A stretch of 64,000 nt of DNA from an archaeon HR01 (GTDB taxonomy: Archaea > Thermoproteota > Nitrososphaeria_A > Caldarchaeales > Caldarchaeaceae). Shown in pieces: positions 5,445-62,618 of this stretch (position 1 is its first letter; each line of letters starts with the position of its first letter). The DNA is taken from NCBI GenBank assembly GCA_002898355.1, contig BEHD01000005.1, positions 34,411 through 98,410 of the forward strand, given 5' to 3'. Position numbers and translations under genes: made by a program. The notes beneath the pieces were generated by a model. The model saw only the letters and a list, made by a program, of their open reading frames with translations. It was not told where the DNA came from and ran no database searches.

Positions 5445-5849
5445 TTAGTGGCTGCGGGGGTTGATCGGCGATATCACCGCCGTCACCACGTTGTTGACTA
5501 TTTTCATGTTCTTCAATATCCCTGACCAAGGCAGCTTGACAAACTCCCTCTTACCGCCTCCCACTATCTTGACCGTGTTGCCCACAACCTCCACCGACAC
5601 CAGTCCCCTAGCCTGTATGATTAGATGGAGGAGGCCGTTCTCCTCCCTCATCTCATAGTAGATATCTTTCTGCCTGGCCTCCGAAGCCCCTCCGCCTCCC
5701 CTGAGGAGGAGGAAGAGTATAGCTGACAGCCCTCCGACGATGGCCAGATGTAGGGGGTGGAGATATATGGCCATGAAGACAGCCGCCACCGATAGTAGTG
5801 TCAGAAGCGTCAGAAGCCTCAGGACACCCAACCACGCCACCACAGCCAA
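5445..5849 (-). CDS. Hypothetical membrane-anchored protein
   Basis: N-terminal TM helices plus a Gly-rich soluble C-terminal domain; convergent with the NuoL-like gene. Confidence 0.3.
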   Translation of the reverse strand: MAVVAWLGVLRLLTLLTLLSVAAVFMAIYLHPLHLAIVGGLSAILFLLLRGGGGASEARQKDIYYEMREENGLLHLIIQARGLVSVEVVGNTVKIVGGGKREFVKLPWSGILKNMKIVNNVVTAVISPINPRSH

Positions 5850-5976
5850 CCTCTACATAAGGCATGATATATCCTCTAAGCCTTCTAGAGAACTCAATAT
5901 TCCCCGGATATTTTTTGGAAAATCTCTAGAGGTGTAGAGCGGGTTGTTCCAGGGTAGAGCCTATATCGCTGCTGGC

Positions 5977-6543
5977 CTAACCCAATTTAAAAATTTCCTT
6001 CAGGGTTTTATAGGAATATTCGGCGTGCCCGTTAGATAAAAAGACTATCTCATATCTCTTCTTATCTCCACCCAGCTTGAACCGCATATCGAGCCTGTTC
6101 CCTCTGAGCTTCATCTTCAACTCGTCGAGCTCACCGTAACCCGCTTTATACCCCACCATTACACGGGAGACCCTCCAAAACTTTTCCATCAGCTGTTGGA
6201 TGATCTGGGCAGCGTGGGTGTATTTGAGGCCGCTAAGCCTCGCTAACTCCGCATACCACGCCCTATCCTTCTCTTCGGCCCCTCGAATTCTCGCAAATAT
6301 CTGGCCTATAGCACTCCAGAACACATCCTCCTCAACGCTGCCGCTTCTATGGGTGAACCGTCCGGATTCAGGCCCCCTATCCGGCGCAAAACTCCGTACT
6401 TCATCCGTCACCAGCTCCACGAGGCTATTCTGGCAGAAGACGAGTAGACACCTTACTACCCCGCCGCCGAGCGTTCTCAGTGAGAAAGTCCGCCTCCACG
6501 CCTCCAGAACTATTCTCACCACATCATCGCCGGCTCCGCTCAT
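5977..6543 (-). CDS. Hypothetical protein
   Basis: 188-aa ORF with no recognisable motif. Confidence 0.3.
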   Translation of the reverse strand: MSGAGDDVVRIVLEAWRRTFSLRTLGGGVVRCLLVFCQNSLVELVTDEVRSFAPDRGPESGRFTHRSGSVEEDVFWSAIGQIFARIRGAEEKDRAWYAELARLSGLKYTHAAQIIQQLMEKFWRVSRVMVGYKAGYGELDELKMKLRGNRLDMRFKLGGDKKRYEIVFLSNGHAEYSYKTLKEIFKLG

Positions 6544-6688
6544 CAGCCATCCTCCAAAACCGGTTTCGGAAATAAATCTTTGCCATCCCAGTAAAATCTG
6601 GCCCCCGTTAGTGTGGCCGCCTCTTATAACAAGGGCCTACCCACATTATTATCGGTTTATATTCTGGCCGGTGACGGATAGGTGGTAG

Positions 6689-7270
6689 ATGCCGAGAAAA
6701 GGCAGGAACGGTGGAAGGAACGTTTTCAGAGTCCTTATACCCATCATACCCGCCGCATTACTCGTGGCTTTCATAGTCTACCTCATAACGATACCTCCCA
6801 ACCCGCCTCCCACAACAGTTCCCACCACGGCCAGCCAAGGTGATTTGGCGCCGGACTTCACCCTCAGAATCATAGACGGCGAGGGGTTGAAAGACCAGTC
6901 ATTCTCACTATCCGAAGTGAAGGGGAGACCGATCTTCATCGACTTCATCCATGAATGGTGCCCCCACTGCAACAACATGGCCAGCACAATTGACAGGCTT
7001 CACAGCCAATACGGCGATAGAGTGTTCTTCATCACCGTCGCAGGAAGCTCCAACACCACACCCGAGAAGACCGCCGAATATATTAGACGCCATCATATCT
7101 CCTGGACAACGGTCTACGACGACGGATTGAATGTCTTCAGACAGTTCGGCGTCCGTGGAACACCGACCTATATTGTCATCGGCCCTAACGGGATAATAGT
7201 AGGTAAGCTCGAGGGTGAGCAGCCATACACAGTATTGGAGCAGCTAGTCAAGAACGTAATAGGCGGCTGA
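6689..7270 (+). CDS. Membrane-anchored thioredoxin-like thiol-disulfide oxidoreductase (TlpA/ResA/DsbE-like)
   Basis: N-terminal signal anchor (VLIPIIPAALLVAFIVYLITI) and a WCPHC active-site motif in a thioredoxin fold. Confidence 0.65.
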   Translation: MPRKGRNGGRNVFRVLIPIIPAALLVAFIVYLITIPPNPPPTTVPTTASQGDLAPDFTLRIIDGEGLKDQSFSLSEVKGRPIFIDFIHEWCPHCNNMASTIDRLHSQYGDRVFFITVAGSSNTTPEKTAEYIRRHHISWTTVYDDGLNVFRQFGVRGTPTYIVIGPNGIIVGKLEGEQPYTVLEQLVKNVIGG

Positions 7271-7674
7271 GAAGCATCTACCTGACGTCAGCACTTCTAT
7301 CAGCCGCAGGCCTACTACTCTCAATATATCTAACCCTTCTGCCACCGCCAACCTTCTGCGATATCAACAGCTTCTTCTCATGCGACACCGTTCTCTCAAG
7401 CCCCTACGCCAAGATAGGCGGCATACCCACAGCCTTCCTAGGGGTTGCCTGGTTCGCAGCAGCTACAGCACTTTCACCACTATCCATCAGGTCCGCCAGA
7501 GCCTCGAAAACCCTCCTAACGCTGTCAGTGTTCGCAGCCGCAGGCGTGTCGGTGCTGGTCTATGTCGAGCTCGCCCTGATAGGCTCAGTATGTCTGCTAT
7601 GCACAGCAGCCCACCTCCTAGGCGTGGGTGTGCTGGCCACATCCATAGTAGGTCTGAGGTCTAGCCGCGTCTGA
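7267..7674 (+). CDS. VKOR (vitamin K epoxide reductase)-family membrane oxidoreductase. Open frame with no ATG/GTG/TTG at its 5' end. It overlaps the stop of the upstream thioredoxin-like gene in another frame.
   Basis: My translation: LRSIYLTSALLSAAGLLLSIYLTLLPPPTFCDINSFFSCDTVLSSPYAKIGGIPTAFLGVAWF...GSVCLLCTAAHLL. It has the VKOR loop Cys pair (Cx7C), the S.YA..GIP.A.LG motif and the TM4 CxxC (CLLC). It is missing from the ORF track because it lacks a canonical start. Confidence 0.5.
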   Translation: MRSIYLTSALLSAAGLLLSIYLTLLPPPTFCDINSFFSCDTVLSSPYAKIGGIPTAFLGVAWFAAATALSPLSIRSARASKTLLTLSVFAAAGVSVLVYVELALIGSVCLLCTAAHLLGVGVLATSIVGLRSSRV

Positions 7675-8017
7675 CAGCCGATAGGGATAGGGATGCTGCA
7701 CTGGCCGCCACAACGAAGAAGGAGAGGAATAGGTGGATTGCTTTCGCAACCTCAGGCCCTTCGGCGAATATCACCAGCCCGAAGACACCCTGTATGATGT
7801 ATAGGGCTAGGGTGAAGGAGACATCGTTGGCTGACGTGTGCCCCGATTTCCTGGCCGAATAAACAACACCCAGCAGTATCAGGAATGTGAGGAAGCCGAG
7901 GCCGACGTGGCCGAGGGTGTAGAGCTCACCCTCAACAAGCTTCAGATTGAATGCGATACCCTGAGCGAGCTGCAGGATTGTAAGGAGGGTCACTAGGCCC
8001 AAGGCTCTGGTTATCAT
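7661..8017 (-). CDS. Small integral membrane protein (3-4 TM), unknown function
   Basis: Hydrophobic 118-aa ORF. Confidence 0.35.
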   Translation of the reverse strand: MITRALGLVTLLTILQLAQGIAFNLKLVEGELYTLGHVGLGFLTFLILLGVVYSARKSGHTSANDVSFTLALYIIQGVFGLVIFAEGPEVAKAIHLFLSFFVVAASAASLSLSAVRRG

Positions 8018-8129
8018 GGGGACGGCGTCTACATGGCGCTATAAATTTTTGATGTGGCGCCGCTGGATTTGTTTATCCGCCCAAAAGATGGGGAGTGGTG
8101 GTTTTTCATGTTATTCTGCCATGTTCAAG

Positions 8130-8137
8130 TATAAATA
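8130..8137 (+). promoter_or_regulatory. TATA box (tataaata) about 33-45 nt upstream of the glnA start
   Basis: AT-rich octamer in an otherwise GC-rich intergenic region, at the expected archaeal promoter distance. Confidence 0.4.
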
Positions 8138-8170
8138 CTGCGTTTTACGTTAGTTGCAACTTGTTTAGGA

Positions 8171-9649
8171 GTGGTTGAGGACATGTTCCCGGCATACACC
8201 GACGCAGGGTTAAAGCCCTGGAGCTTCACCAAGGAGCAGGTACTGGAGATAATCAAGAAGGAGGGTGTTAGATTCATAGACCTGCAGTTTACGGACCTGC
8301 CCGGTAAGCTCCAGCATATAACAATCTCCTCCGGCTACCTTGACGCTGAGATGTTCTCCGAGGGCGTGCCAAAACTGGACGGCTCTTCGATAAGGGGCTT
8401 CGCAGAGATCTACGAGTCGGATATGCTTCTCAGGCCAGACCCAACCACCTTCGCAGTTCTGCCTTGGAGCCTCGACGGAAAGAAGACCGCCAGGATGATA
8501 TGTGATGTATACCGGGGGTTCGGGGGTGGAAGGTTCTCGAGAGACCCGAGGCTGGCAGCCCAGAGGGCTGAGGAATATCTGCGGGCCCAAGGATATGAGC
8601 CGTCGTACTGGGGTCCCGAGATAGAGTTCTTCGTCTTCGACAGAGTTAGCTGGGATGTCTCCACACCCTACCGGGGGCAGAGCTACGTGATAGAATCCCG
8701 GGAGGCCCCCTGGGAGGTGGACGGCAAATCGTTCCCAATCAGGTTTAAGGAGGGGTACTATCCCACGCCGCCGCAGGATACGTTGATGGAGTATAGGAAC
8801 GAGGTCTGCAGGCTCTTAACAGACTACTTCGGCGTTGAGGTTGATGCCCACCACCACGAGGTCGCCACCGCAGGGCAGTGCGAGATAGACATGAAGTATG
8901 ACACGTTGACGAGGATGGCTGACAAAGCCCAGACATACAAATATGTTACGAAGAATGTGGCCAGCCAGATGGGGATGGTGGCAACCTTCATGCCCAAACC
9001 CATCTTCGGCGATAACGCCTCCGGGATGCATATCCACATAAGCCTCTGGAGCGGTAGCAAAAACCTGTTCTACGACCCTGACGATGACTACGCCGAGCTG
9101 AGCCAGCTGGGCCGCTATTTTGTGGGAGGACTACTAGAGCATAGCAGAGCTCTCACAGCAATCGTCACACCCACCACCAACTCATTTAGGAGGCTGGTGC
9201 CTGGTTATGAGGCCCCTGTCTTTATCGCATGGAGCAGGTCCAACCGCTCAGCCAACATAAGAATACCCGTCTACCAGAGGGGTGCTGGCTCAGCCAAGAG
9301 GAAGAGGGTTGAGTTTAGGACGCCTGACCCATCGTGTAACCCCTACCTATGTTTTGCAGCGTTAGCTGCTGCCGGTGTTGACGGCATCAAGAAGAAGATG
9401 GACCCGGGAGACCCCGTCAACGAGGACATCTACAGGCTCAGCAGCGAGAAGAGGAGGGAGCTAAACATTAGAGAGCTACCCGGCAGCTTGAAGGAGGCGG
9501 TGGAATCTCTGGAGAGCGATAGGGAGTTTCTGAAACCCGTCATGGCCGACGACCTAGTGGATACGCTGATGGAGCTGGAGATGAAAAACTTCGTAGAGGT
9601 GAGCTCTAGGCCCCATCCATACGAGTTCTATCTCTACGCAGACGTTTAA
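8171..9649 (+). CDS. glnA: Glutamine synthetase type I
   Basis: FMPKPIFGDNASGMHIHISLW and other GS signatures; 492 aa. Confidence 0.9.
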   Translation: MVEDMFPAYTDAGLKPWSFTKEQVLEIIKKEGVRFIDLQFTDLPGKLQHITISSGYLDAEMFSEGVPKLDGSSIRGFAEIYESDMLLRPDPTTFAVLPWSLDGKKTARMICDVYRGFGGGRFSRDPRLAAQRAEEYLRAQGYEPSYWGPEIEFFVFDRVSWDVSTPYRGQSYVIESREAPWEVDGKSFPIRFKEGYYPTPPQDTLMEYRNEVCRLLTDYFGVEVDAHHHEVATAGQCEIDMKYDTLTRMADKAQTYKYVTKNVASQMGMVATFMPKPIFGDNASGMHIHISLWSGSKNLFYDPDDDYAELSQLGRYFVGGLLEHSRALTAIVTPTTNSFRRLVPGYEAPVFIAWSRSNRSANIRIPVYQRGAGSAKRKRVEFRTPDPSCNPYLCFAALAAAGVDGIKKKMDPGDPVNEDIYRLSSEKRRELNIRELPGSLKEAVESLESDREFLKPVMADDLVDTLMELEMKNFVEVSSRPHPYEFYLYADV

Positions 9650-9699
9650 AAACCGGATTAAGTCCTTTTATATCAGCTCACACCATCAACAGTCAGGGA

Positions 9700-9933
9700 A
9701 TGCCATTAGCTTTTCTACTCCTCAACGTAAAACCCGGCAAGGAGGAAGACGTCTTAAAGGCGCTCGCCGAGATTAAGGAGGTGAAAGAAGCCCATCGGGT
9801 ATACGGTGTCTATGACACCCTCGTGAAGGTTCAGGCGGATACAATGGAGAATCTCAAGAGTATATTAAATAATAGGGTGAAGAGGATCGAGAACATCACC
9901 TCAGTCGTCTCCCTCATAGTGACCTCGGGTTGA
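9700..9933 (+). CDS. Stand-alone RAM/ACT-like (Lrp/AsnC C-terminal ligand-binding) domain protein, 77 aa
   Basis: The beta-alpha-beta-beta-alpha-beta pattern LLLNVKPGKEEDVLKALAEIKEVKEAHRVYGVYDTLVKV is typical of an AsnC-type RAM domain; no HTH is present. Confidence 0.5.
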   Translation: MPLAFLLLNVKPGKEEDVLKALAEIKEVKEAHRVYGVYDTLVKVQADTMENLKSILNNRVKRIENITSVVSLIVTSG

Positions 9934-11507
9934 GTAGGAGATTCACCATACCGGCCACGGAGTCGGACCATATAGAGTTCAAGGAGAAGCTTCTCTCCTC
10001 CGTACATCTCAGGCCTGAGAAGATGCAGAAGCTGGCCAGCCAGATGAAGCACAGGCTCCAGATGGGGAATGGGAAGGCCGTCTATGTCTTGGGCGTGAGC
10101 GATGATGGCAGGAGTGTTGGCCTCTCCGAGATTGAGCTGGAGGAGAGTCTGAATGTTTTGAAGGCTGTGGCCATCGAATGCGGTGCCGTGATAGACAGGG
10201 TTGAGCGGTTTGAGGAGAACAATTTGTCGATTGCCAAGGTGATAATCTCCAGCGTCGCTGAGCCTAGCAGAAACCATATAACAGTTGCTGTGGCGGGTCA
10301 TGTAAACCACGGCAAGTCAACTCTTCTAGCCTGCCTTATAACAGGTGAGCGGGACGATGGAAAGAAGTGGCTCTACCTAGACACCCTACCCCACGAGGTT
10401 GAACGCAACCTCTCGGCCGACATACATTTCGCCCTTCTCGGCTTCAACGGCTCAAAACCTATACTGCTGTCCAACCCCCTCGACAGGGTGGAGCGCAGCC
10501 GTGTGGCAGGTGAGGCTCAGAAGCTTGTGAGCTTCGTGGATACTGTAGGGCATGAGCCATGGCTCCGGACAACCATCCGCGGGATTCTGGGCCAGGAGAT
10601 AGACTACGGCATACTGGTTGTGGCTGCGGACGACGGCCCAACCCATATTACGAGGGAGCATCTGGGGATAATGCTGGCCACGGGGCTTCCAGTCATAGTC
10701 TGTATCACCAAGTCCGACAAGGTGGCTGCTGAGAGGCTGGAATACGTTGTGGATGTTACGGGAGGCCTTCTCAAACGTGTAGGCCGTATCCCCTATGTCA
10801 TCAGGCGGGAGGAGGATATCAACCTAGTCATGGACAAGCTCTCAGTGGTGGTTCCAATAATCAAAACCTCCTCAGTCACCCGTGAAGGCTTCGACCTTCT
10901 CTACTCCATACTCAGAAGCCTACCAGCCCGTCCTAAGGTCTCTGACAAGCCTCTCCTACTCTACATAGACCGGGTCTACAACGTGGAGGGTGTGGGCAGT
11001 GTTGTCTCTGGCTCTGTCAGGCAGGGCAAGCTGACGGCTGGGAGCGAGGTTCTTGTGGGGCCAGACCCGAAAGGCGTCTTCAGGATGGTGAAGGTGAGAA
11101 GCATAGAGACACACTACGCCCGAATCCCTGAGGCCGAGCCGGGATATATCGTAGGCGCAGCCTTGAGGGGTGTGAAGCATGAGCTCCTCCACAGAGGGAT
11201 GGTCCTATGCGACCCAGCCCTAAAACCTCAGGCAGTCTACAGCTTCGAGGCCGAGGTCACGGTCCTATCCCATCCCACACGGATCGGCAACGGATACGAG
11301 CCGGTTCTCCACTGCCACACGATAGCCTCATCCGTCAAGCTAACACTCTTGGATAGGGATTATCTGAAGGCTGGCGAGACGGGAAGGGTTGTCATGAGGT
11401 TCAAGTATAGGCCTTGGTATGTCGTGGAGGGTGATAAGTTCATCTTCCGGGAAGGCAAGACCAAGGGTATAGGGACGATAACTAGGATTCTAGAAACAGC
11501 GGGCTAG
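9930..11507 (+). CDS. EF-Tu/EF1A-family translational GTPase with a roughly 110-aa N-terminal extension (GTPBP1-like). TTG start overlaps the upstream stop (tTGa).
   Basis: G1 AGHVNHGKSTLLACLITGERDDGK, G3 DTVGHEPW, NKxD-like TKSD, followed by beta-barrel domains 2 and 3. Confidence 0.7.
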   Translation: MSRRFTIPATESDHIEFKEKLLSSVHLRPEKMQKLASQMKHRLQMGNGKAVYVLGVSDDGRSVGLSEIELEESLNVLKAVAIECGAVIDRVERFEENNLSIAKVIISSVAEPSRNHITVAVAGHVNHGKSTLLACLITGERDDGKKWLYLDTLPHEVERNLSADIHFALLGFNGSKPILLSNPLDRVERSRVAGEAQKLVSFVDTVGHEPWLRTTIRGILGQEIDYGILVVAADDGPTHITREHLGIMLATGLPVIVCITKSDKVAAERLEYVVDVTGGLLKRVGRIPYVIRREEDINLVMDKLSVVVPIIKTSSVTREGFDLLYSILRSLPARPKVSDKPLLLYIDRVYNVEGVGSVVSGSVRQGKLTAGSEVLVGPDPKGVFRMVKVRSIETHYARIPEAEPGYIVGAALRGVKHELLHRGMVLCDPALKPQAVYSFEAEVTVLSHPTRIGNGYEPVLHCHTIASSVKLTLLDRDYLKAGETGRVVMRFKYRPWYVVEGDKFIFREGKTKGIGTITRILETAG

Positions 11508-12745
11508 TTCTTCATCCGTGCCAGCGTGAGGAGGGCGGCGGACTGAGTCGCCAGTATGTAGGCTATAACGACCTGAGATGGGGCTCCGAAATCCATTAAC
11601 ATCCCATATATCACGCCGCTGAGGAAGGCTGAAACACCCAACCCGGTGTTGAGAAGCCCGTAGGATGTGGCCGTACCACCCATCTCCGACACAGCCGCCC
11701 TATATACAGACTCTTGCATACCCAGAACAGAGCCGAAGAAGGCCGCCGAAAGAAGTAGCGTGAAGAAGTCTTGGGCGAGGAAGGCGGTAGCCGAGGAAGG
11801 TATAGTCAGTATCAGGGGTATTGCTAGGGTCTTCAAGCCGTATCTGTCGTATAGGAAGCCTACGGCAGGCGCTACAGCCATGTCGACCAGCTGCACCACT
11901 AGATAGATTAGCGGGACGAGATATGTCTGCCCCGACGGCGAAAGTATGGCCGAGGCCCTGTAGAGGATGAGGGGCGCATATACCAGCCCCACCGAGTTGA
12001 GGGAGGCCAGCAGAGTGAGGAGTCCAACACGGCCGGCCGGAGCCCCGCCACACCCAACCTCTGGCTTGACGGCTCCAAGCCTTCCATAGGCTACGGCCAT
12101 GATTGCAAGGAGCGCTGCATAGGCTGGAAGGGTTGAGGCGAAGGCCACACCATATCCTCCGGGGAATAGGGCCAGCAACACCAGCATAAGAGCGGGCCCA
12201 GCTACAGCTCCCAGCTGGTCCACGGCCTCATGCAGGCCGAAGGCTTTCCCAGCACCCATACTCCGGCTGACTGCTGAGAGAACGGCGTCCCGTGGAGCTG
12301 TCCGCAGGGCCTTCCCAAGCCTCTCCACAACTATGAGGGCTGCGGCCAATTCCCAGCTGCTGGCCAGTGAGAGGAGGGGTATGGCCAGTATTGCTCCGTA
12401 TCCTAGAAATATGAGATGCCAGTGTGTTCGGGTTCTGTCGGCCAGAGCCCCCGAGCCAAGCTTCACAACCTGCATCACCATCTCGCCCAGACCAGTCACA
12501 ACACCCACCACAAGGGCTGAAGCGCCCAAAACTCTCAGATAGTCGGGTATGATGCTTCTACCACCCTCGTAGATGAGGTCTCCTAGAAGGCTGACAAGTC
12601 CTAGGAGCAAGACAGCCCTAAAACCTCCCATCATCCAGAAGCCACCCATAACATCCAACAACAAACGTGTTGGGAGCGGCCTGCGACACCACCATAGCGT
12701 ACACAACCAAAAGCATAAATAAATACCCCCCACATCCAAGGCCAA
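11504..12745 (-). CDS. Major facilitator superfamily transporter
   Basis: 12-TM pattern, 413 aa, MFS-like loop motifs. Confidence 0.65.
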   Translation of the reverse strand: MALDVGGIYLCFWLCTLWWCRRPLPTRLLLDVMGGFWMMGGFRAVLLLGLVSLLGDLIYEGGRSIIPDYLRVLGASALVVGVVTGLGEMVMQVVKLGSGALADRTRTHWHLIFLGYGAILAIPLLSLASSWELAAALIVVERLGKALRTAPRDAVLSAVSRSMGAGKAFGLHEAVDQLGAVAGPALMLVLLALFPGGYGVAFASTLPAYAALLAIMAVAYGRLGAVKPEVGCGGAPAGRVGLLTLLASLNSVGLVYAPLILYRASAILSPSGQTYLVPLIYLVVQLVDMAVAPAVGFLYDRYGLKTLAIPLILTIPSSATAFLAQDFFTLLLSAAFFGSVLGMQESVYRAAVSEMGGTATSYGLLNTGLGVSAFLSGVIYGMLMDFGAPSQVVIAYILATQSAALLTLARMKN

Positions 12746-13681
12746 GTGTGGCTGGTGAAAGCTAAGCCTTTTTTTGTTTTAGGTTCACTGGCTGTACTCA
12801 TCCAGGCCGTATCCGGATGGTGGGATGTCTTCTCCCACAGGATAGAATTTGTAGATGAGGACCCTTTGCTAAATCCAGCCCATGTCGGCCTCTTCGCCGG
12901 CGTTCTCCTACTGTCGGTGAGCGTCTCGAGGAAGGCCGGCGGCCCGGTTAGGCCGTCTGGCCTGGGCCTGTTGAGGCTTTTCGTCATAATTCAGTTAATG
13001 TCCGGTGTGGCTAATGAGATTATCCATAGGATACCTCATCTGGAGGCTGTACTCGATTTCTACATACATAGCCTATTTACTTTGGGGATGCTACTCGCAT
13101 CGCTGCTATTATTCGTCGGCGCCAGCCTCAGCTATCTGGTGACAGGGAGGGTGGGGAGGGACCTCGTTATGCTGTGGTCTATCTCTATGTCTGGCGCAGC
13201 CCTATGGCTAATCTCATCAGGCTCCATACTCTATCTTTTCCACCAAAACATGACAGCCACGGCGCTAATGCTGGGGTTTATAGCCTCGATAATCCTGAAC
13301 ACAGCTACAGCAGCATCTATGCGTGTTGGTGTGGCGGCTTTAACATCTGCCACATACTTCACCGCATCATATCTTGTGCTGGTATTGTATGCAGGGGTGA
13401 ACCCATACCCACCCTCTGGCCCCTCCACAGTCCTTCTGGTAGAGTCTATGGTGGCGCTGATAGCTGTGAAGGCTGGGCGGGTGAAGACATCCCTGCTGTC
13501 CGGCGGGGCCTTGTACGGGCTGTTAACGGAGATAATCTACTACCCTATGCTGGGAAGACCGTGGACGGTGATAGAGGCATCTATGTGGGGCCTCATCGGC
13601 GGTATTCTGGGAGCCCTCCCCATACTACTCCTCGGCGGACACATATCCCAACTCTATAGAAGTAAGATACCGGTAGTTTAG
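12746..13681 (+). CDS. Polytopic membrane protein, unknown function (start uncertain)
   Basis: At least eight hydrophobic helices; no motif recognised. Confidence 0.35.
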   Translation: MWLVKAKPFFVLGSLAVLIQAVSGWWDVFSHRIEFVDEDPLLNPAHVGLFAGVLLLSVSVSRKAGGPVRPSGLGLLRLFVIIQLMSGVANEIIHRIPHLEAVLDFYIHSLFTLGMLLASLLLFVGASLSYLVTGRVGRDLVMLWSISMSGAALWLISSGSILYLFHQNMTATALMLGFIASIILNTATAASMRVGVAALTSATYFTASYLVLVLYAGVNPYPPSGPSTVLLVESMVALIAVKAGRVKTSLLSGGALYGLLTEIIYYPMLGRPWTVIEASMWGLIGGILGALPILLLGGHISQLYRSKIPVV

Positions 13682-14111
13682 GACTTGCTGGATGGGGCTC
13701 CGGCAATATACCCTAGGCTACCGGCTGTTGTTCATGTCATATTTAATCCCTACATGTATTTCTTTGAAGGATGTTGAGGAGGTTATGGAATAAGGCCATG
13801 GTCCCGATGATAGAGTCTCCTCAAGAGGTGTAGACAGCCGATGTATCGCCTGAATCTACATCTACCGCTGACCATACATATGATTTATTACCACTATTCT
13901 TGATTACCTTATCGTCTTAGCTATAACCCTCCTAAACTCCCTAGATGGATTGAATAAACTTTAGACCTGGCTCCCCAATGTCTCCCTAGAAGCGCTGACC
14001 AGGAAATACCTTCCGGAAGATATCCCTCAAGCTTAATCCACCCATATTAGAGAATAAACGTGTAGGCCTCCCAAGTAGTTATGAAACCTGACAGGGGTAG
14101 TGAGCCTGGCT

Positions 14112-14804
14112 CTAGACTTCTATTTCCAGTTCTTTGGCTAGCCTGTATGCCTCCTCCTCTATGTAGGGTGTTACTATTAGTAATCTATCAGGTCTCTTGC
14201 CTGTGACTTCCTCGTATAGCTTGGATTTCCTCATGAATGTGGATACGTTAGCCCTCCTAACGTTGGAGGATACCTCTATCAATATGGTTTTCCCGTCGTG
14301 GATGCTTACGTCGACCTCAACGTTGCTTGGGTAGCCATAGACCACACCCTTAGCGTCTAAGTGGCTCCACCTCTCAACCCTAACACCTAGCTCCCTGCCT
14401 AAGAGACCCCTAATCCCCTCCCTGAACGCCTCCTCCGTCATAATCCCCCACCTAGCCCCCAAAGCAGAGAGCCTCCTCTCTATCAAGTCGAAGCCCCTAT
14501 TCATGTCCTCCCTGAGCTTGCCCACCTCCTCCCAAAGCTTGTTCTGACCCTCCCTAAGTGATTTAACCTCTTCCCATAGCTTGTTCTGGTTTTCTTCTAG
14601 CTTTAACATCCTCTCCTCTAGAACCAACATCCTTTCCTCTAAAGCAAGCATCCTCTCCTCCATCTTGTCCATCCTCTTGAGGACCTCGGATAAACCTAGG
14701 TAGCCTGCAACCGTGTACCTAAACTCTACGTCCTTCTCCAGCAGCTCTATGAACTCCTTCCTCAGCTTCCCAGACATCCTCTTGATTGGCCCTGAGAAAA
14801 ACAT
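14112..14804 (-). CDS. Coiled-coil protein with a C-terminal PD-(D/E)XK-like/DUF3782-type domain (crenarchaeal family sometimes annotated as chordopoxvirus-fusion-protein-like)
   Basis: Heptad repeats EERMLALEERMLVLEERMLKLEE and NQNKLWEEVKSLREGQNKLWEEVGKLRE. The C-terminus has D...EVDVSIHDGKTILIEVSSNV, resembling a D-(D/E)xK nuclease core. An isolated gene with AT-richer flanks. Confidence 0.5.
   Translation of the reverse strand: MFFSGPIKRMSGKLRKEFIELLEKDVEFRYTVAGYLGLSEVLKRMDKMEERMLALEERMLVLEERMLKLEENQNKLWEEVKSLREGQNKLWEEVGKLREDMNRGFDLIERRLSALGARWGIMTEEAFREGIRGLLGRELGVRVERWSHLDAKGVVYGYPSNVEVDVSIHDGKTILIEVSSNVRRANVSTFMRKSKLYEEVTGKRPDRLLIVTPYIEEEAYRLAKELEIEV
14529..14682. repeat. In-frame DNA tandem repeats inside the coiled-coil gene: three 21-bp units (aacatcctctcctctagaacc-like) and two roughly 39-bp units
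   Basis: Direct inspection: aacatcctctcctctagaacc / aacatcctttcctctaaagca / agcatcctctcctccatcttg, and cccaaagcttgttctgaccctccctaag / cccatagcttgttctggttttcttctag. Confidence 0.55.
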
Positions 14805-15033
14805 TTTATATAATGCTTATTTAACGTTTCCCATTGTGTTCAGATAAGCTGATATAATTAAACCCTGGGGTTTGATTGTTGTTTGCATGGATATTGTGGC
14901 CTTGGTCTCTAGCCAGAGAATATAGAACGGTTTAAACTGTTACCCTTTACAGCATCCGGCTGCCCATAAGTGTGTAGCGGCTAAAGATTTGGACATGTAT
15001 AAGACTATATAACGGCTAGACCGCTATGAGGCG

Positions 15034-62517: not shown

Positions 62518-62618
62518 GGGGGCGTAGCCGAGCAAGGCCAAGGCGTCGGGCTCCAGATCACACGGCCAAGGTCAGAGGCGCAACCCGAAGACCGTGGGTT
62601 CAAGTCCCACCGCCCCCA
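62518..62618 (+). tRNA. Intron-containing tRNA, most likely tRNA-Trp (anticodon CCA) with a 26-nt intron in or next to the anticodon loop
   Basis: Hand fold: acceptor GGGGGCG/CGCCCCC, discriminator A. D arm GCCG-AGCAAGGCCA-AGGC. Anticodon stem TCGGG/CCCGA separated by 33 nt beginning CTCCAGA (the Trp-type loop). Variable loop AGACC. T arm GTGGG-TTCAAGT-CCCAC. A canonical BHB could not be drawn by eye. Confidence 0.6.

What the first reader, a model, noticed from the sequence alone, without database searches (positions are those of the whole stretch)
14112..14804. Isolated coiled-coil protein with a putative PD-(D/E)XK nuclease-like C-terminus and in-frame DNA tandem repeats
The gene sits alone between AT-richer, non-coding flanks (13682..14111 and 14805..15033). 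Features of the protein and DNA:
- The N-terminal half is built from perfect heptad repeats (three copies of LEERML, two copies of NKLWEEVxxLRE).
- The DNA encodes these as 21-bp and roughly 39-bp direct repeats (14529..14682). Such repeats are slippage-prone and could vary in copy number between strains.
- The C-terminus (D...EVDVSIHDGKTILIEVSSNV) resembles the D-(D/E)xK restriction-endonuclease-like core. This fold is seen in the DUF3782/paREP-like crenarchaeal families, which are often multi-copy and associated with mobile DNA.

Function is unknown. Candidate roles are a nuclease-type defence or mobile-element protein, or a structural coiled-coil protein.
Basis: partly seen in the sequence, partly recalled or inferred. 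Interest (0 to 1): 0.55.

Follow-up and report, generated by a model that had tools for sequence, protein, structure and literature searches.

The report
Stalked PD-(D/E)XK nuclease, strain-variable accessory gene
This is an ordinary member of a known but uncharacterised archaeal family: a long coiled-coil stalk carrying a restriction-enzyme-like nuclease head, here on a small cassette that a close relative lacks and with changes at three conserved sites.

Summary

Corrections:
- The true start is Met10, giving 221 aa at 14112..14777, as GenBank annotates it.
- The longer repeat period is 42 bp, not about 39.
- The DNA repeats are degenerate (62-81% identical) and are identical in a 98%-identical strain.

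New observations:
- Across the family, stalk length is hypervariable. Of 271 pairs with heads at least 90% identical, 177 differ in length, and 155 of those differ by multiples of 7 residues.
- The gene is a 744-bp cassette that is replaced by 109 unrelated bp in a relative with about 93% identical DNA.
- This allele differs from the intact strain allele by H181N, D186N and a 12-bp deletion of the conserved C-terminal YTKV, with no synonymous changes.
- The N-terminal module is shared with several other diverged nuclease heads.

I found no CRISPR, virus, plasmid or transposon link. Function remains untested. The most likely role is an accessory, conflict-type DNA endonuclease. Interest is low to moderate.

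The parts
14112..14777 (-). Most likely true coding sequence: 221 aa plus the stop codon (14112-14114), starting at Met10 of the 230-codon ORF
   Evidence: Homologues and P0001 start at MSGKLRKEF. GenBank GBC68965.1 is 221 aa. A TATA-like box lies 27 nt upstream, and the same box sits 24 nt upstream in L082/L083.
14778..14804 (-). In-frame 9-codon extension to the first ATG, probably untranslated and lying between the TATA box and the real start
   Evidence: ATG1 directly abuts the TATA-like box, so a transcript starting about 25 nt downstream of the box would not contain it (inference).
14805..14814 (-). TATA-like promoter box ATTATATAAA
   Evidence: Read directly. It is identical in L081, and the same decamer lies upstream of the homologue P0026.
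14670..14777 (-). Conserved N-terminal module (about 36 aa, ...EFIELLEKDxEFRYxVAGYLGLSEVLKR.D)
   Evidence: It holds the invariant residues L12, L13, D16, F19, R20, A24, G25 and G28 in alignment A1. It is shared by head classes A to D. It sits at the N-terminus in 199 cluster representatives.
14499..14666 (-). Eight consecutive heptads of the coiled-coil stalk (d = Leu/Met; a = M, M, M, Q, V, Q, V, M), encoded by degenerate 21-bp and 42-bp repeats
   Evidence: The AlphaFold model has a single helix over residues 17-130 of P0001.
14115..14468 (-). PD-(D/E)XK nuclease head (ORF residues 113-230): alpha1, beta1-3, alpha2, beta4, alpha3, truncated beta5
14433..14435 (-). Glu124, candidate motif I
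   Evidence: 100% conserved in 120 homologues.
14310..14312 (-). Asp165, motif II
   Evidence: 100% conserved. It aligns to the motif II Asp of Cas4 SSO0001.
14268..14276 (-). Glu177-Val-Ser179, motif III (E-x-K with Lys replaced by Ser)
   Evidence: Glu is 100% conserved. Position 179 is S in 51% of homologues, K in 24%, A in 10% and T in 7%.
14262..14264 (-). Asn181, derived. It is His in the sister strain and in 93% of homologues.
   Evidence: AAC in the window against CAC in L081. Conservation.
14247..14249 (-). Asn186, derived. It is Asp in the sister strain and in 96% of homologues.
   Evidence: AAC in the window against GAC in L081. Conservation.
14214..14228 (-). Lys193...Tyr197, candidate motif IV on helix alpha2 (the counterpart of the RecB/Cas4 Q...Y motif)
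   Evidence: K is 97% and Y 99% conserved. They align to Q...Y of 4ic1. Knizewski 2007 proposed that the Lys migrated to this helix.
14113..14119 (-). Junction of a 12-bp in-frame deletion between two AAGTCTA direct repeats. It removes the C-terminal Y-T-K-V.
   Evidence: Alignment with L081. Y is 97% and T 99% conserved. The deletion shortens strand beta5.
14092..14835 (.). 744-bp single-gene cassette (20 bp past the stop, the ORF, and 31 bp upstream including the TATA box). It is present here and in L081, and is replaced by 109 unrelated bp in L096.
13682..14091 (.). AT-richer non-coding spacer on the 3' side, with strain-specific indels (13891-14044 absent in L081; 13673-13943 absent in L096)

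Best explanation
This is a genuine gene with its own promoter. It encodes a 221-aa 'stalked nuclease' of the COG5493 family (Pfam DUF3782 + PDDEXK_10).

Its anatomy has three parts:
- a 36-residue conserved N-terminal module;
- a continuous heptad coiled coil of about 90 residues;
- a C-terminal head fused without a break to the stalk helix, with a NucS-like PD-(D/E)XK fold.

Proposed mechanism (inferred): the stalk has Leu at d positions and V/M/Q at a positions, which suggests it pairs two chains in parallel. The two heads would then sit side by side at one end. Each head would use Glu124, Asp165 and Glu177, with Lys193/Tyr197 from helix alpha2 standing in for the missing motif III Lys, to bind Mg2+ and cut DNA. 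The conserved N-module at the other end would be a capping or docking element. Stalk length sets the distance between the two ends, and it changes in whole heptads during evolution.

The gene is not core repair machinery. It is a strain-variable, single-gene accessory cassette from a multi-paralogue superfamily that tends to sit among toxin-antitoxin and ATPase genes. Its most likely role is therefore in genetic conflict (defence-like or toxin-like DNA cleavage).

The allele in this genome carries three derived changes at near-invariant head positions (H181N, D186N, loss of YTKV). It is probably weakened or decaying.
For: SHOWN
- Family and fold: both Pfam domains score far above threshold. 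There are 2586 homologues, and the best 120 all share the same two-domain architecture.
- Conservation: E124, D165 and E177 are 100% conserved, K193 97% and Y197 99%.
- Stalk: the distance from EFRY to ALGARWG spans 52-213 residues, and 60 of 124 values equal 3 mod 7. Of 271 pairs with heads at least 90% identical, 177 differ in stalk length, and 155 of those differ by multiples of 7.
- Accessory status: L096 (about 93% identical DNA, same flanking genes) lacks exactly 14092-14835. Several paralogues occur per MAG. A paralogue lies within 4 kb in 14 of 82 loci, and no other partner is conserved. HEPN/MNT, PIN/VapB, PaREP1, AAA_14 and SNF2 genes lie next to homologues.
- Allele: against L081 the gene has 0 synonymous and 2 nonsynonymous differences plus the 12-bp deletion, all at conserved positions. 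The neighbouring MrpD-like gene shows 4 synonymous and 1 nonsynonymous. The same allele appears in an independent Logan assembly.
- Promoter and start.

LITERATURE
- Knizewski 2007 assigned DUF1626 to the PD-(D/E)XK superfamily and noted the N-terminal coiled coil and the migrated Lys.
Against: - No member of the family has been tested biochemically in any paper I could find. Nuclease activity, substrate and oligomeric state are all inferred.
- Hartmann 2016 studied trimeric coiled coils in this family, so a trimer is possible.
- The canonical motif III Lys is absent here and in most of the family.
- The conflict role rests on distribution and neighbourhood only. In this window the neighbours are housekeeping genes. 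No relatives were found on viral contigs, plasmids or phages.
- Some natural family members carry Y, S or N in place of His181. The 'weakened allele' reading is therefore only suggestive: the chance that two random substitutions both fall on positions at least 90% conserved is about 0.07, from the 59 such positions out of 225 listed.
Confidence: 0.55

Rival explanations
1. It is a housekeeping DNA repair or recombination nuclease, working like NucS/EndoMS or the Hjc Holliday-junction resolvase. The coiled coil would simply be its dimerisation device.
Against: The gene is absent from a relative with about 93% identical DNA at the same locus. The family is multi-copy with interchangeable heads. 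It has no conserved synteny with replication or repair genes. The allele here has lost conserved residues. The protein lacks the NucS N-terminal domain, and there is no NucS_C Pfam hit.
Confidence: 0.12
2. It is a type III CRISPR-Cas accessory protein (the C3a181 family of Shah et al. 2018, PADLOC model PDLC01085).
For: PADLOC model C3a181 matches P0001 nearly end to end (E 2e-24) and also matches classes B, C and D. The cluster was reported next to three type III modules, with Tpen_1359 as the example.
Against: The original cluster has only 3 members and a score of 25.55 against a cut-off of 24. No CRISPR-like array lies within the fetched flanks of any of 85 family loci or anywhere in the 64-kb window. 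The ten nearest large genes are housekeeping. In multi-copy families, chance adjacency to cas genes is expected. The 'diadenylate cyclase' label does not fit the fold.
Confidence: 0.04
3. It is a mobile selfish element, either a free-standing homing-endonuclease-like gene or a cargo gene of a transposon or virus, that inserted between the two membrane-protein genes.
For: There is a clean 744-bp presence/absence cassette carrying its own promoter. The flanks are AT-richer and rich in indels. The family is multi-copy with a patchy distribution.
Against: The boundaries carry no direct or inverted repeat of 6 bp or more, and L096 holds unrelated filler rather than an empty site. No relatives were found in IMG/VR, PLSDB or INPHARED. 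No integrase or transposase lies nearby. The direction of the change, gain or loss, is unknown.
Confidence: 0.12
4. It is a non-catalytic structural or DNA-binding coiled-coil protein. Either the nuclease head is dead, or this copy is a decaying pseudogene whose ORF is still open.
For: The motif III Lys is Ser. This allele has H181N, D186N and a truncated last strand, with 0 synonymous changes against the sister strain. The gene is dispensable in L096.
Against: Across the family E124, D165 and E177 are invariant and K193/Y197 are nearly so, which argues that catalysis is retained in general. The reading frame, promoter and all of these residues are intact here. The same allele is found in two assemblies.
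Confidence: 0.17

Closest known systems
COG5493 proteins: Pfam DUF3782 (PF12644) + PDDEXK_10 (PF07788, formerly DUF1626), for example Thermofilum pendens P0073 and Infirmifilum P0052/P0081
   Same: They share the two-domain architecture, the N-terminal EFRY-AGYLGL module, the heptad stalk, the ALGARWG...D...E-x-[SK]-S-H...SD...RK...Y...YTKV head motifs, and 49-63% identity.
   Different: The stalk is shorter than in many members (87 residues between anchors, against a range of 52-213). This allele has Asn for the conserved His and Asp and lacks the C-terminal YTKV.
NucS/EndoMS mismatch endonuclease (PDB 2vld, 5gke)
   Different: Identity is only 16-17%. NucS has an N-terminal DNA-binding domain in place of the coiled coil, and it keeps the motif III Lys (from my own knowledge of the family). 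There is no NucS_C Pfam hit here. The gene here is dispensable and multi-copy as a family.
AF1548 (PDB 1y88), an uncharacterised archaeal restriction-endonuclease-like protein
   Different: It has no coiled-coil stalk, identity is 17%, and its function is also unknown.
Alpha/beta coiled coils of the DUF3782 stalks (Tcar0761, PDB 5APZ; Hartmann et al. 2016, PMC4786415)
   Same: The stalk belongs to the same Pfam entry. That paper took its starting point from the coiled coils of crenarchaeal PD-(D/E)XK endonucleases.
   Different: The window protein has eight uninterrupted heptads and no [aliphatic]-A-T-K-[polar]-[DE] beta-layer motif. Tcar0761 lacks the nuclease head.
Cas4/RecB-type nucleases (SSO0001, PDB 4ic1)
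   Different: The sequence match is not significant. The window protein has no Fe-S cluster cysteines and no cas gene context.
RmuC-type proteins (N-terminal coiled coil plus C-terminal PD-(D/E)XK nuclease)
   Same: The overall design is similar: a coiled coil followed by a restriction-endonuclease-like domain. This is recalled from my own knowledge of the family and was not tested here.
   Different: No Pfam RmuC hit appeared at E of 1 or better. RmuC is bacterial and the head family is different.

Membership tests
COG5493 / Pfam DUF3782 + PDDEXK_10 | Both profile HMMs matched above Pfam's gathering scores, in the order DUF3782 then PDDEXK_10 | tested here: met
   83.6 bits (cut-off 24.4) over residues 78-159, and 71.6 bits (cut-off 21.2) over residues 160-229.
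COG5493 / Pfam DUF3782 + PDDEXK_10 | [quoted passage not shown] | tested here: met
COG5493 / Pfam DUF3782 + PDDEXK_10 | Conserved acidic residues of motif II (Asp) and motif III (Glu) | tested here: met
   D165 and E177 are present and are invariant in 120 homologues.
COG5493 / Pfam DUF3782 + PDDEXK_10 | Lys of the (D/E)xK motif at its canonical position | tested here: not met
   The position is Ser179. In the family it is S in 51% and K in 24%. A conserved Arg-Lys pair (192/193) on helix alpha2 is the likely substitute, as Knizewski 2007 proposed. This is typical of the family and does not exclude membership.
COG5493 / Pfam DUF3782 + PDDEXK_10 | N-terminal alpha-helical coiled-coil region | tested here: met
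   Eight heptads and a single helix over residues 17-130 in the model.
COG5493 / Pfam DUF3782 + PDDEXK_10 | Nuclease activity | not testable with these tools
   No biochemical data for any member was found in the literature library.
NucS/EndoMS | NucS N-terminal DNA-binding domain plus a NucS_C profile match | tested here: not met
   There is no NucS_N or NucS_C Pfam hit at E of 1 or better. The N-terminal half is a helix. Only the head fold resembles NucS.
Type III CRISPR accessory family C3a181 | Match to the family model | tested here: met
   PADLOC PDLC01085, E 2e-24, model positions 3-225 of 226.
Type III CRISPR accessory family C3a181 | Location next to a type III cas module or a CRISPR array | tested here: not met
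   There is no array in the 64-kb window, the neighbours are housekeeping, and no CRISPR-like array lies in the fetched flanks of any of 85 family loci. I did not scan for cas genes across the whole window.
Alpha/beta coiled coil (beta-layer) stalks | Hexad or nonad insertions with the [aliphatic]-A-T-K-[polar]-[DE] motif | tested here: not met
   The sequence contains no A-T-K motif, and the heptads run uninterrupted from residue 47 to 103.
PaREP families | Match to a PaREP profile | tested here: not met
   No PaREP family appears in the Pfam scan at E of 1 or better. A PaREP1 gene is merely a neighbour of one homologue.
Transposon or insertion-sequence cargo | Terminal inverted repeats, a target-site duplication, or an adjacent transposase or integrase | tested here: not met
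   No repeats of 6 bp or more at the cassette boundaries, no inverted repeats in the gene region, and no such neighbours.

The most novel reading that the evidence does not exclude
The gene belongs to a much larger, undescribed superfamily of archaeal 'stalked nucleases'. One conserved 36-residue N-terminal module and a heptad coiled coil of rapidly changing length carry interchangeable, deeply diverged PD-(D/E)XK heads (classes A to D and more). On this reading the stalk is a molecular ruler or an arms-race target in an uncharacterised defence or conflict system. The inactivating-looking changes in this allele, together with the gene's absence from a sister strain, would be the gain-and-loss turnover typical of such systems.
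Probability: 0.2. Interest if true: 0.6.

Novelty: new member of a known kind. Interest (0 to 1): 0.3.

Why it matters
On its own this gene is an ordinary, correctly guessed member of a family that Pfam, COG and two papers already describe, so it changes little.

What could matter is the family. It is large: 2586 homologues of the class A type alone. It is widespread in thermophilic archaea and has never been tested experimentally. Three patterns seen here are cheap to test and point to a conflict function rather than a housekeeping one:
- stalk length is hypervariable and quantised in heptads;
- one N-terminal module is shared by several nuclease heads;
- strains differ in presence or absence of the gene and in alleles that look knocked out.

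The strain pair (the HR01 allele against P0001) is also a ready-made natural mutant set for testing which conserved head residues are needed.

Tried and rejected
- Sequence searches of the PDB, with the protein and with two profiles, gave only coiled-coil noise and one non-significant Cas4 match.
- NCBIfam gave nothing meaningful.
- PHROGs gave only weak coiled-coil hits.
- An Rfam scan of the flanks at permissive E-values found nothing credible. The flanks have no copies elsewhere in the window.
- tblastn found no paralogue in the window.
- I looked for syntenic loci through the adjacent 311-aa membrane protein in JGI metagenomes. Only 28-35% identical relatives without synteny turned up. The MrpD-like neighbour worked instead.
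- I tested L082/L083 for a breakpoint next to a homologue. They are collinear.
- I considered a CRISPR type III accessory role because of the PADLOC label. I rejected it for lack of arrays near any of 85 loci and because the original evidence is marginal.
- I considered virus or plasmid carriage. No relatives were found in IMG/VR, PLSDB or INPHARED.
- I considered transposon-like insertion. The cassette has no boundary repeats.
- A small palindrome upstream of the cassette folds no better than shuffled sequence (z = -0.99).
- I could not measure distances in the model, because coordinates are not exposed. The placement of H181 and D186 rests on secondary structure and motif order only.
Full report
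OBSERVATION

The window contains a 230-codon ORF at 14112..14804 on the minus strand. GC content is 0.451 and 0.402 for its two flanks (13682..14111 and 14805..15033), 0.495 for the gene and 0.523 for the window. The flanks hold no sizeable ORF, no Rfam match and no sequence repeated elsewhere in the window.

Tandem Repeats Finder reports a 21-bp period with 2.7 copies at 14605-14660 (86% matches). This is the only tandem repeat scoring 60 or more in the whole 64 kb. A weaker 21-bp array lies at 14528-14588, and a pair spaced 42 bp apart lies at 14524-14546 and 14566-14588. The description is therefore correct.

Some details need adjusting:
- The protein has MEERML once and LEERML twice.
- The longer unit is 42 bp (14 residues).
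- At the DNA level the units are old and diverged. The 21-mers share 13-17 of 21 bases and the 42-mers share 29 of 42, and repeated residues often use different codons.

START CODON AND PROMOTER

The first ATG directly abuts an ATTATATAAA box (14805-14814). Homologues, the gene call on the sister contig and the GenBank record (GBC68965.1, 'hypothetical protein HRbin01_00655', 221 aa) all begin at Met10 (MSGKLRKEF, at 14777). The same decamer lies 24 nt upstream of the same start in an unrelated homologue's locus. I infer a TATA box that drives a leaderless or nearly leaderless transcript, so the real product is 221 aa (14112..14777).

WHAT IT IS

Pfam gives DUF3782 (83.6 bits against a cut-off of 24.4) followed by PDDEXK_10 (71.6 bits against 21.2). 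A search of 5.8 billion proteins finds 2586 relatives. The best 120 all have the same two domains and are 189-352 aa long. They come from Thermofilum, Infirmifilum, Bathyarchaeia, Caldarchaeum, Jordarchaeales and Marsarchaeota.

The family is already in the literature:
- Knizewski et al. 2007 assigned DUF1626 (COG5493) to the PD-(D/E)XK superfamily. They noted the N-terminal coiled coil, and they noted that the motif III Lys is often replaced, with a basic patch on the following helix.
- Hartmann et al. 2016 used the coiled-coil stalks of these crenarchaeal endonucleases as a starting point for their work on alpha/beta coiled coils.
- Steczkiewicz et al. 2012 list the function as unknown.

I found no paper with experimental data on the family.

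FOLD AND ACTIVE SITE

I built an AlphaFold model of the intact sister allele from a 52-sequence alignment. It has mean pLDDT 86.1. It consists of a short helix (residues 2-15), one continuous helix (17-130), and then strands 134-141, 151-160 and 163-169, helix 175-192, strand 198-202, helix 208-216 and strand 220-222.

- Foldseek gives NucS/EndoMS at E about 3e-4.

Conservation among the 120 homologues, in ORF numbering:

| Position | Conservation |
|---|---|
| E124, D150, D165, E177 | 100% |
| 179 (canonical Lys) | S 51%, K 24% |
| S180 | 99% |
| H181 | 93% |
| D186 | 96% |
| R192 / K193 | 91% / 97% |
| Y197 | 99% |
| C-terminal Y / T | 97% / 99% |

A weak profile match to Cas4 (4ic1) aligns D165, E177-x-179 and K193...Y197 with the Cas4 Asp, E-x-K and Q...Y motifs. 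The canonical Lys is missing, as in most of the family.

STRAIN COMPARISON

The window is 'archaeon HR01'. Its MrpD-like neighbour is 100% identical to the NCBI protein, and the relatives are Caldarchaeum-type Nitrososphaerota. NCBI leaves the organism unclassified.

Contig L081 (ENA) is 98% identical across the locus. Within the gene it differs in only three ways, and in each case L081 carries the family consensus:
- AAC in the window against CAC in L081 (Asn181 against His);
- AAC against GAC (Asn186 against Asp);
- a 12-bp in-frame deletion between two AAGTCTA direct repeats, which removes the C-terminal YTKV and shortens the last strand.

There are no synonymous differences. The MrpD-like neighbour shows 4 synonymous and 1 nonsynonymous. 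The same allele occurs in an independent Logan assembly. The coiled-coil repeats are identical in the two strains.

I read this as suggestive evidence for a weakened or decaying allele, not proof. By chance, two substitutions would both fall on positions at least 90% conserved about 7% of the time (59 of 225 positions). A few natural family members also lack the His.

PRESENCE OR ABSENCE OF THE GENE

Contig L096 (GCA_038890035.1) has about 93% identical DNA and the same flanking genes: the 311-aa membrane protein, the MrpD-like gene, MscS and a TreT-type glycosyltransferase. It lacks window 14092-14835 and holds 109 unrelated bp there instead. That segment runs from 20 bp past the stop codon, through the ORF, to 31 bp upstream including the TATA box.

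The boundaries carry no direct or inverted repeat of 6 bp or more, and L096 has no remnant of the gene. The gene is therefore a dispensable single-gene cassette. The direction of the change (gain or loss) and its mechanism are unknown. The spacer next to it also carries strain-specific indels.

STALK VARIATION IN THE FAMILY

The distance between the N-terminal EFRY anchor and the head's ALGARWG anchor ranges from 52 to 213 residues in 124 proteins. Sixty of the 124 values equal 3 mod 7, as does the window's value of 87.

Among 271 pairs whose heads are at least 90% identical, 177 differ in stalk length. Of these, 155 differ by an exact multiple of 7, and most of the rest by 11, 18, 25 or 43. 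The pairs are not independent. Some pairs with 100% identical heads differ by 14, 21 or 43 residues. In at least one relative (L056) the repeat units are exact 20-mers present four times.

CONTEXT

In the window the neighbours are glutamine synthetase, an EF-1-alpha-like GTPase, an MFS transporter, a membrane protein, two Mrp/Nuo-type antiporter subunits, MscS, a glycosyltransferase and an amidase. There is no CRISPR array.

Around homologues elsewhere I saw HEPN/MNT pairs, PIN/VapB, PaREP1, AAA_14/DUF4143 ATPases, PadR and SNF2/DUF499 genes. Clustering the neighbour ORFs of 82 loci shows no conserved partner. The commonest neighbour is another member of the same superfamily, in 14 loci.

PADLOC model C3a181 matches the protein (E 2e-24). 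That model comes from a 3-member cluster that barely passed the cut-off in Shah et al. 2018 (25.55 against 24), and its 'diadenylate cyclase' label does not fit the fold. No CRISPR-like array lies in the fetched flanks of any of 85 family loci. No relatives occur in IMG/VR viral contigs, PLSDB plasmids or INPHARED phages.

WIDER SUPERFAMILY (OUTSIDE THE FINDING)

The 36-residue N-terminal module plus the coiled coil is joined to at least four head types in the fetched loci. Classes B, C and D have no Pfam hit in their heads.

Profile-profile comparison nevertheless links them to the class A head, with probability about 88% and E about 3e-6. The Glu, Asp/Asn and E-x-T motifs all align. Classes C and D are one family, at 99.8%.

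An exhaustive search with the 39-residue module alone finds 199 cluster representatives, and the module is almost always at the extreme N-terminus. Among the 61 full-length proteins in the 149 listed hits I examined, only 5 have class A heads.

MECHANISM: SHOWN AND INFERRED

Shown:
- the family, the fold and the conserved acidic residues;
- a stalk helix that is continuous with the head;
- stalk variation in whole heptads;
- dispensability of the gene;
- the allele differences.

Inferred:
- Metal-dependent DNA cleavage by E124/D165/E177, with K193/Y197 taking the place of the missing Lys.
- A parallel dimer. The heptads have Leu at d positions and V/M/Q at a positions, which by the classical GCN4 rules favours dimers. 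A trimer is not excluded, given Hartmann 2016.
- The N-module as a docking or capping element.
- A conflict-type rather than housekeeping role.
- A weakened HR01 allele.

VERDICT

The gene is a new but ordinary member of a known, uncharacterised family. I rate interest as low to moderate. The potential value lies in the family-level patterns and in the natural mutant allele, not in this locus itself.

Noticed in passing
Loci L012-L080 (for example L047:7998-8834, L027:7992-8753, L039:7998-8840, L060:8001-8576); proteins P0241-P0389: The conserved N-terminal module (EFRY-AGYLGL) plus the variable coiled coil is attached to at least four different C-terminal heads. Classes B, C and D have no Pfam hit but are remote PD-(D/E)XK homologues by hhalign (probability about 88%; C against D 99.8%). 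One MAG can hold several classes. Class A, the window's type, is a minority.
   Followed up: partly
window 5760-15004, compared with L094 4760-4971 and L095: In relatives whose MrpD-like protein is 89% identical, the 635-aa antiporter gene and a 129-aa gene lie directly upstream of the 491-aa antiporter gene. In the window a 9.2-kb block separates them. The block holds glutamine synthetase, an EF-like GTPase, an MFS transporter, the 311-aa membrane protein and the nuclease. This is a rearrangement or insertion of a largely housekeeping block.
   Followed up: no
window 14835-14883: Seven substitutions and one gap against L081 cluster in 49 bp immediately outside the 5' boundary of the cassette. 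Inside the cluster the window reads AAACCCTGGGGTTT (a palindrome), where L081 and L096 read AAGGCCGGGCTTT-type palindromes. The fold energy is no better than that of shuffled sequence (z = -0.99).
   Followed up: partly
window 13673-14044: The non-coding spacer 3' of the gene is a mosaic of strain-specific indels. Positions 13891-14044 are absent in L081 (flanked by TAATA on each side), and 13673-13943 are absent in L096.
   Followed up: partly
window 12746-13681: The 311-aa membrane protein has no Pfam family. It evolves fast between strains (9 synonymous and 9 nonsynonymous differences plus 45 gap columns against L081). Its only metagenomic relatives are 28-35% identical.
   Followed up: no
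window 62518-62618 (+): Rfam finds a 101-nt tRNA (57.3 bits) that ARAGORN does not report. This is probably an intron-containing archaeal tRNA.
   Followed up: no
PADLOC model PDLC01085 (C3a181): The model's description, 'Diadenylate cyclase', is inherited from Table 2 of Shah et al. 2018. It does not fit a coiled coil plus PD-(D/E)XK protein. It looks like a mislabel that could propagate into defence-system annotations.
   Followed up: partly
Protein P0002 (324 aa, JGI): This family member has an internal duplication. A first head is truncated after 'IEISSSVDERHD' and is followed by a second stalk segment and a complete head.
   Followed up: no
L056:8143-8365: In this relative the coiled-coil gene contains exact 20-mers repeated four times. 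Its repeats are therefore young and truly prone to slippage, unlike the diverged repeats in the window gene.
   Followed up: no
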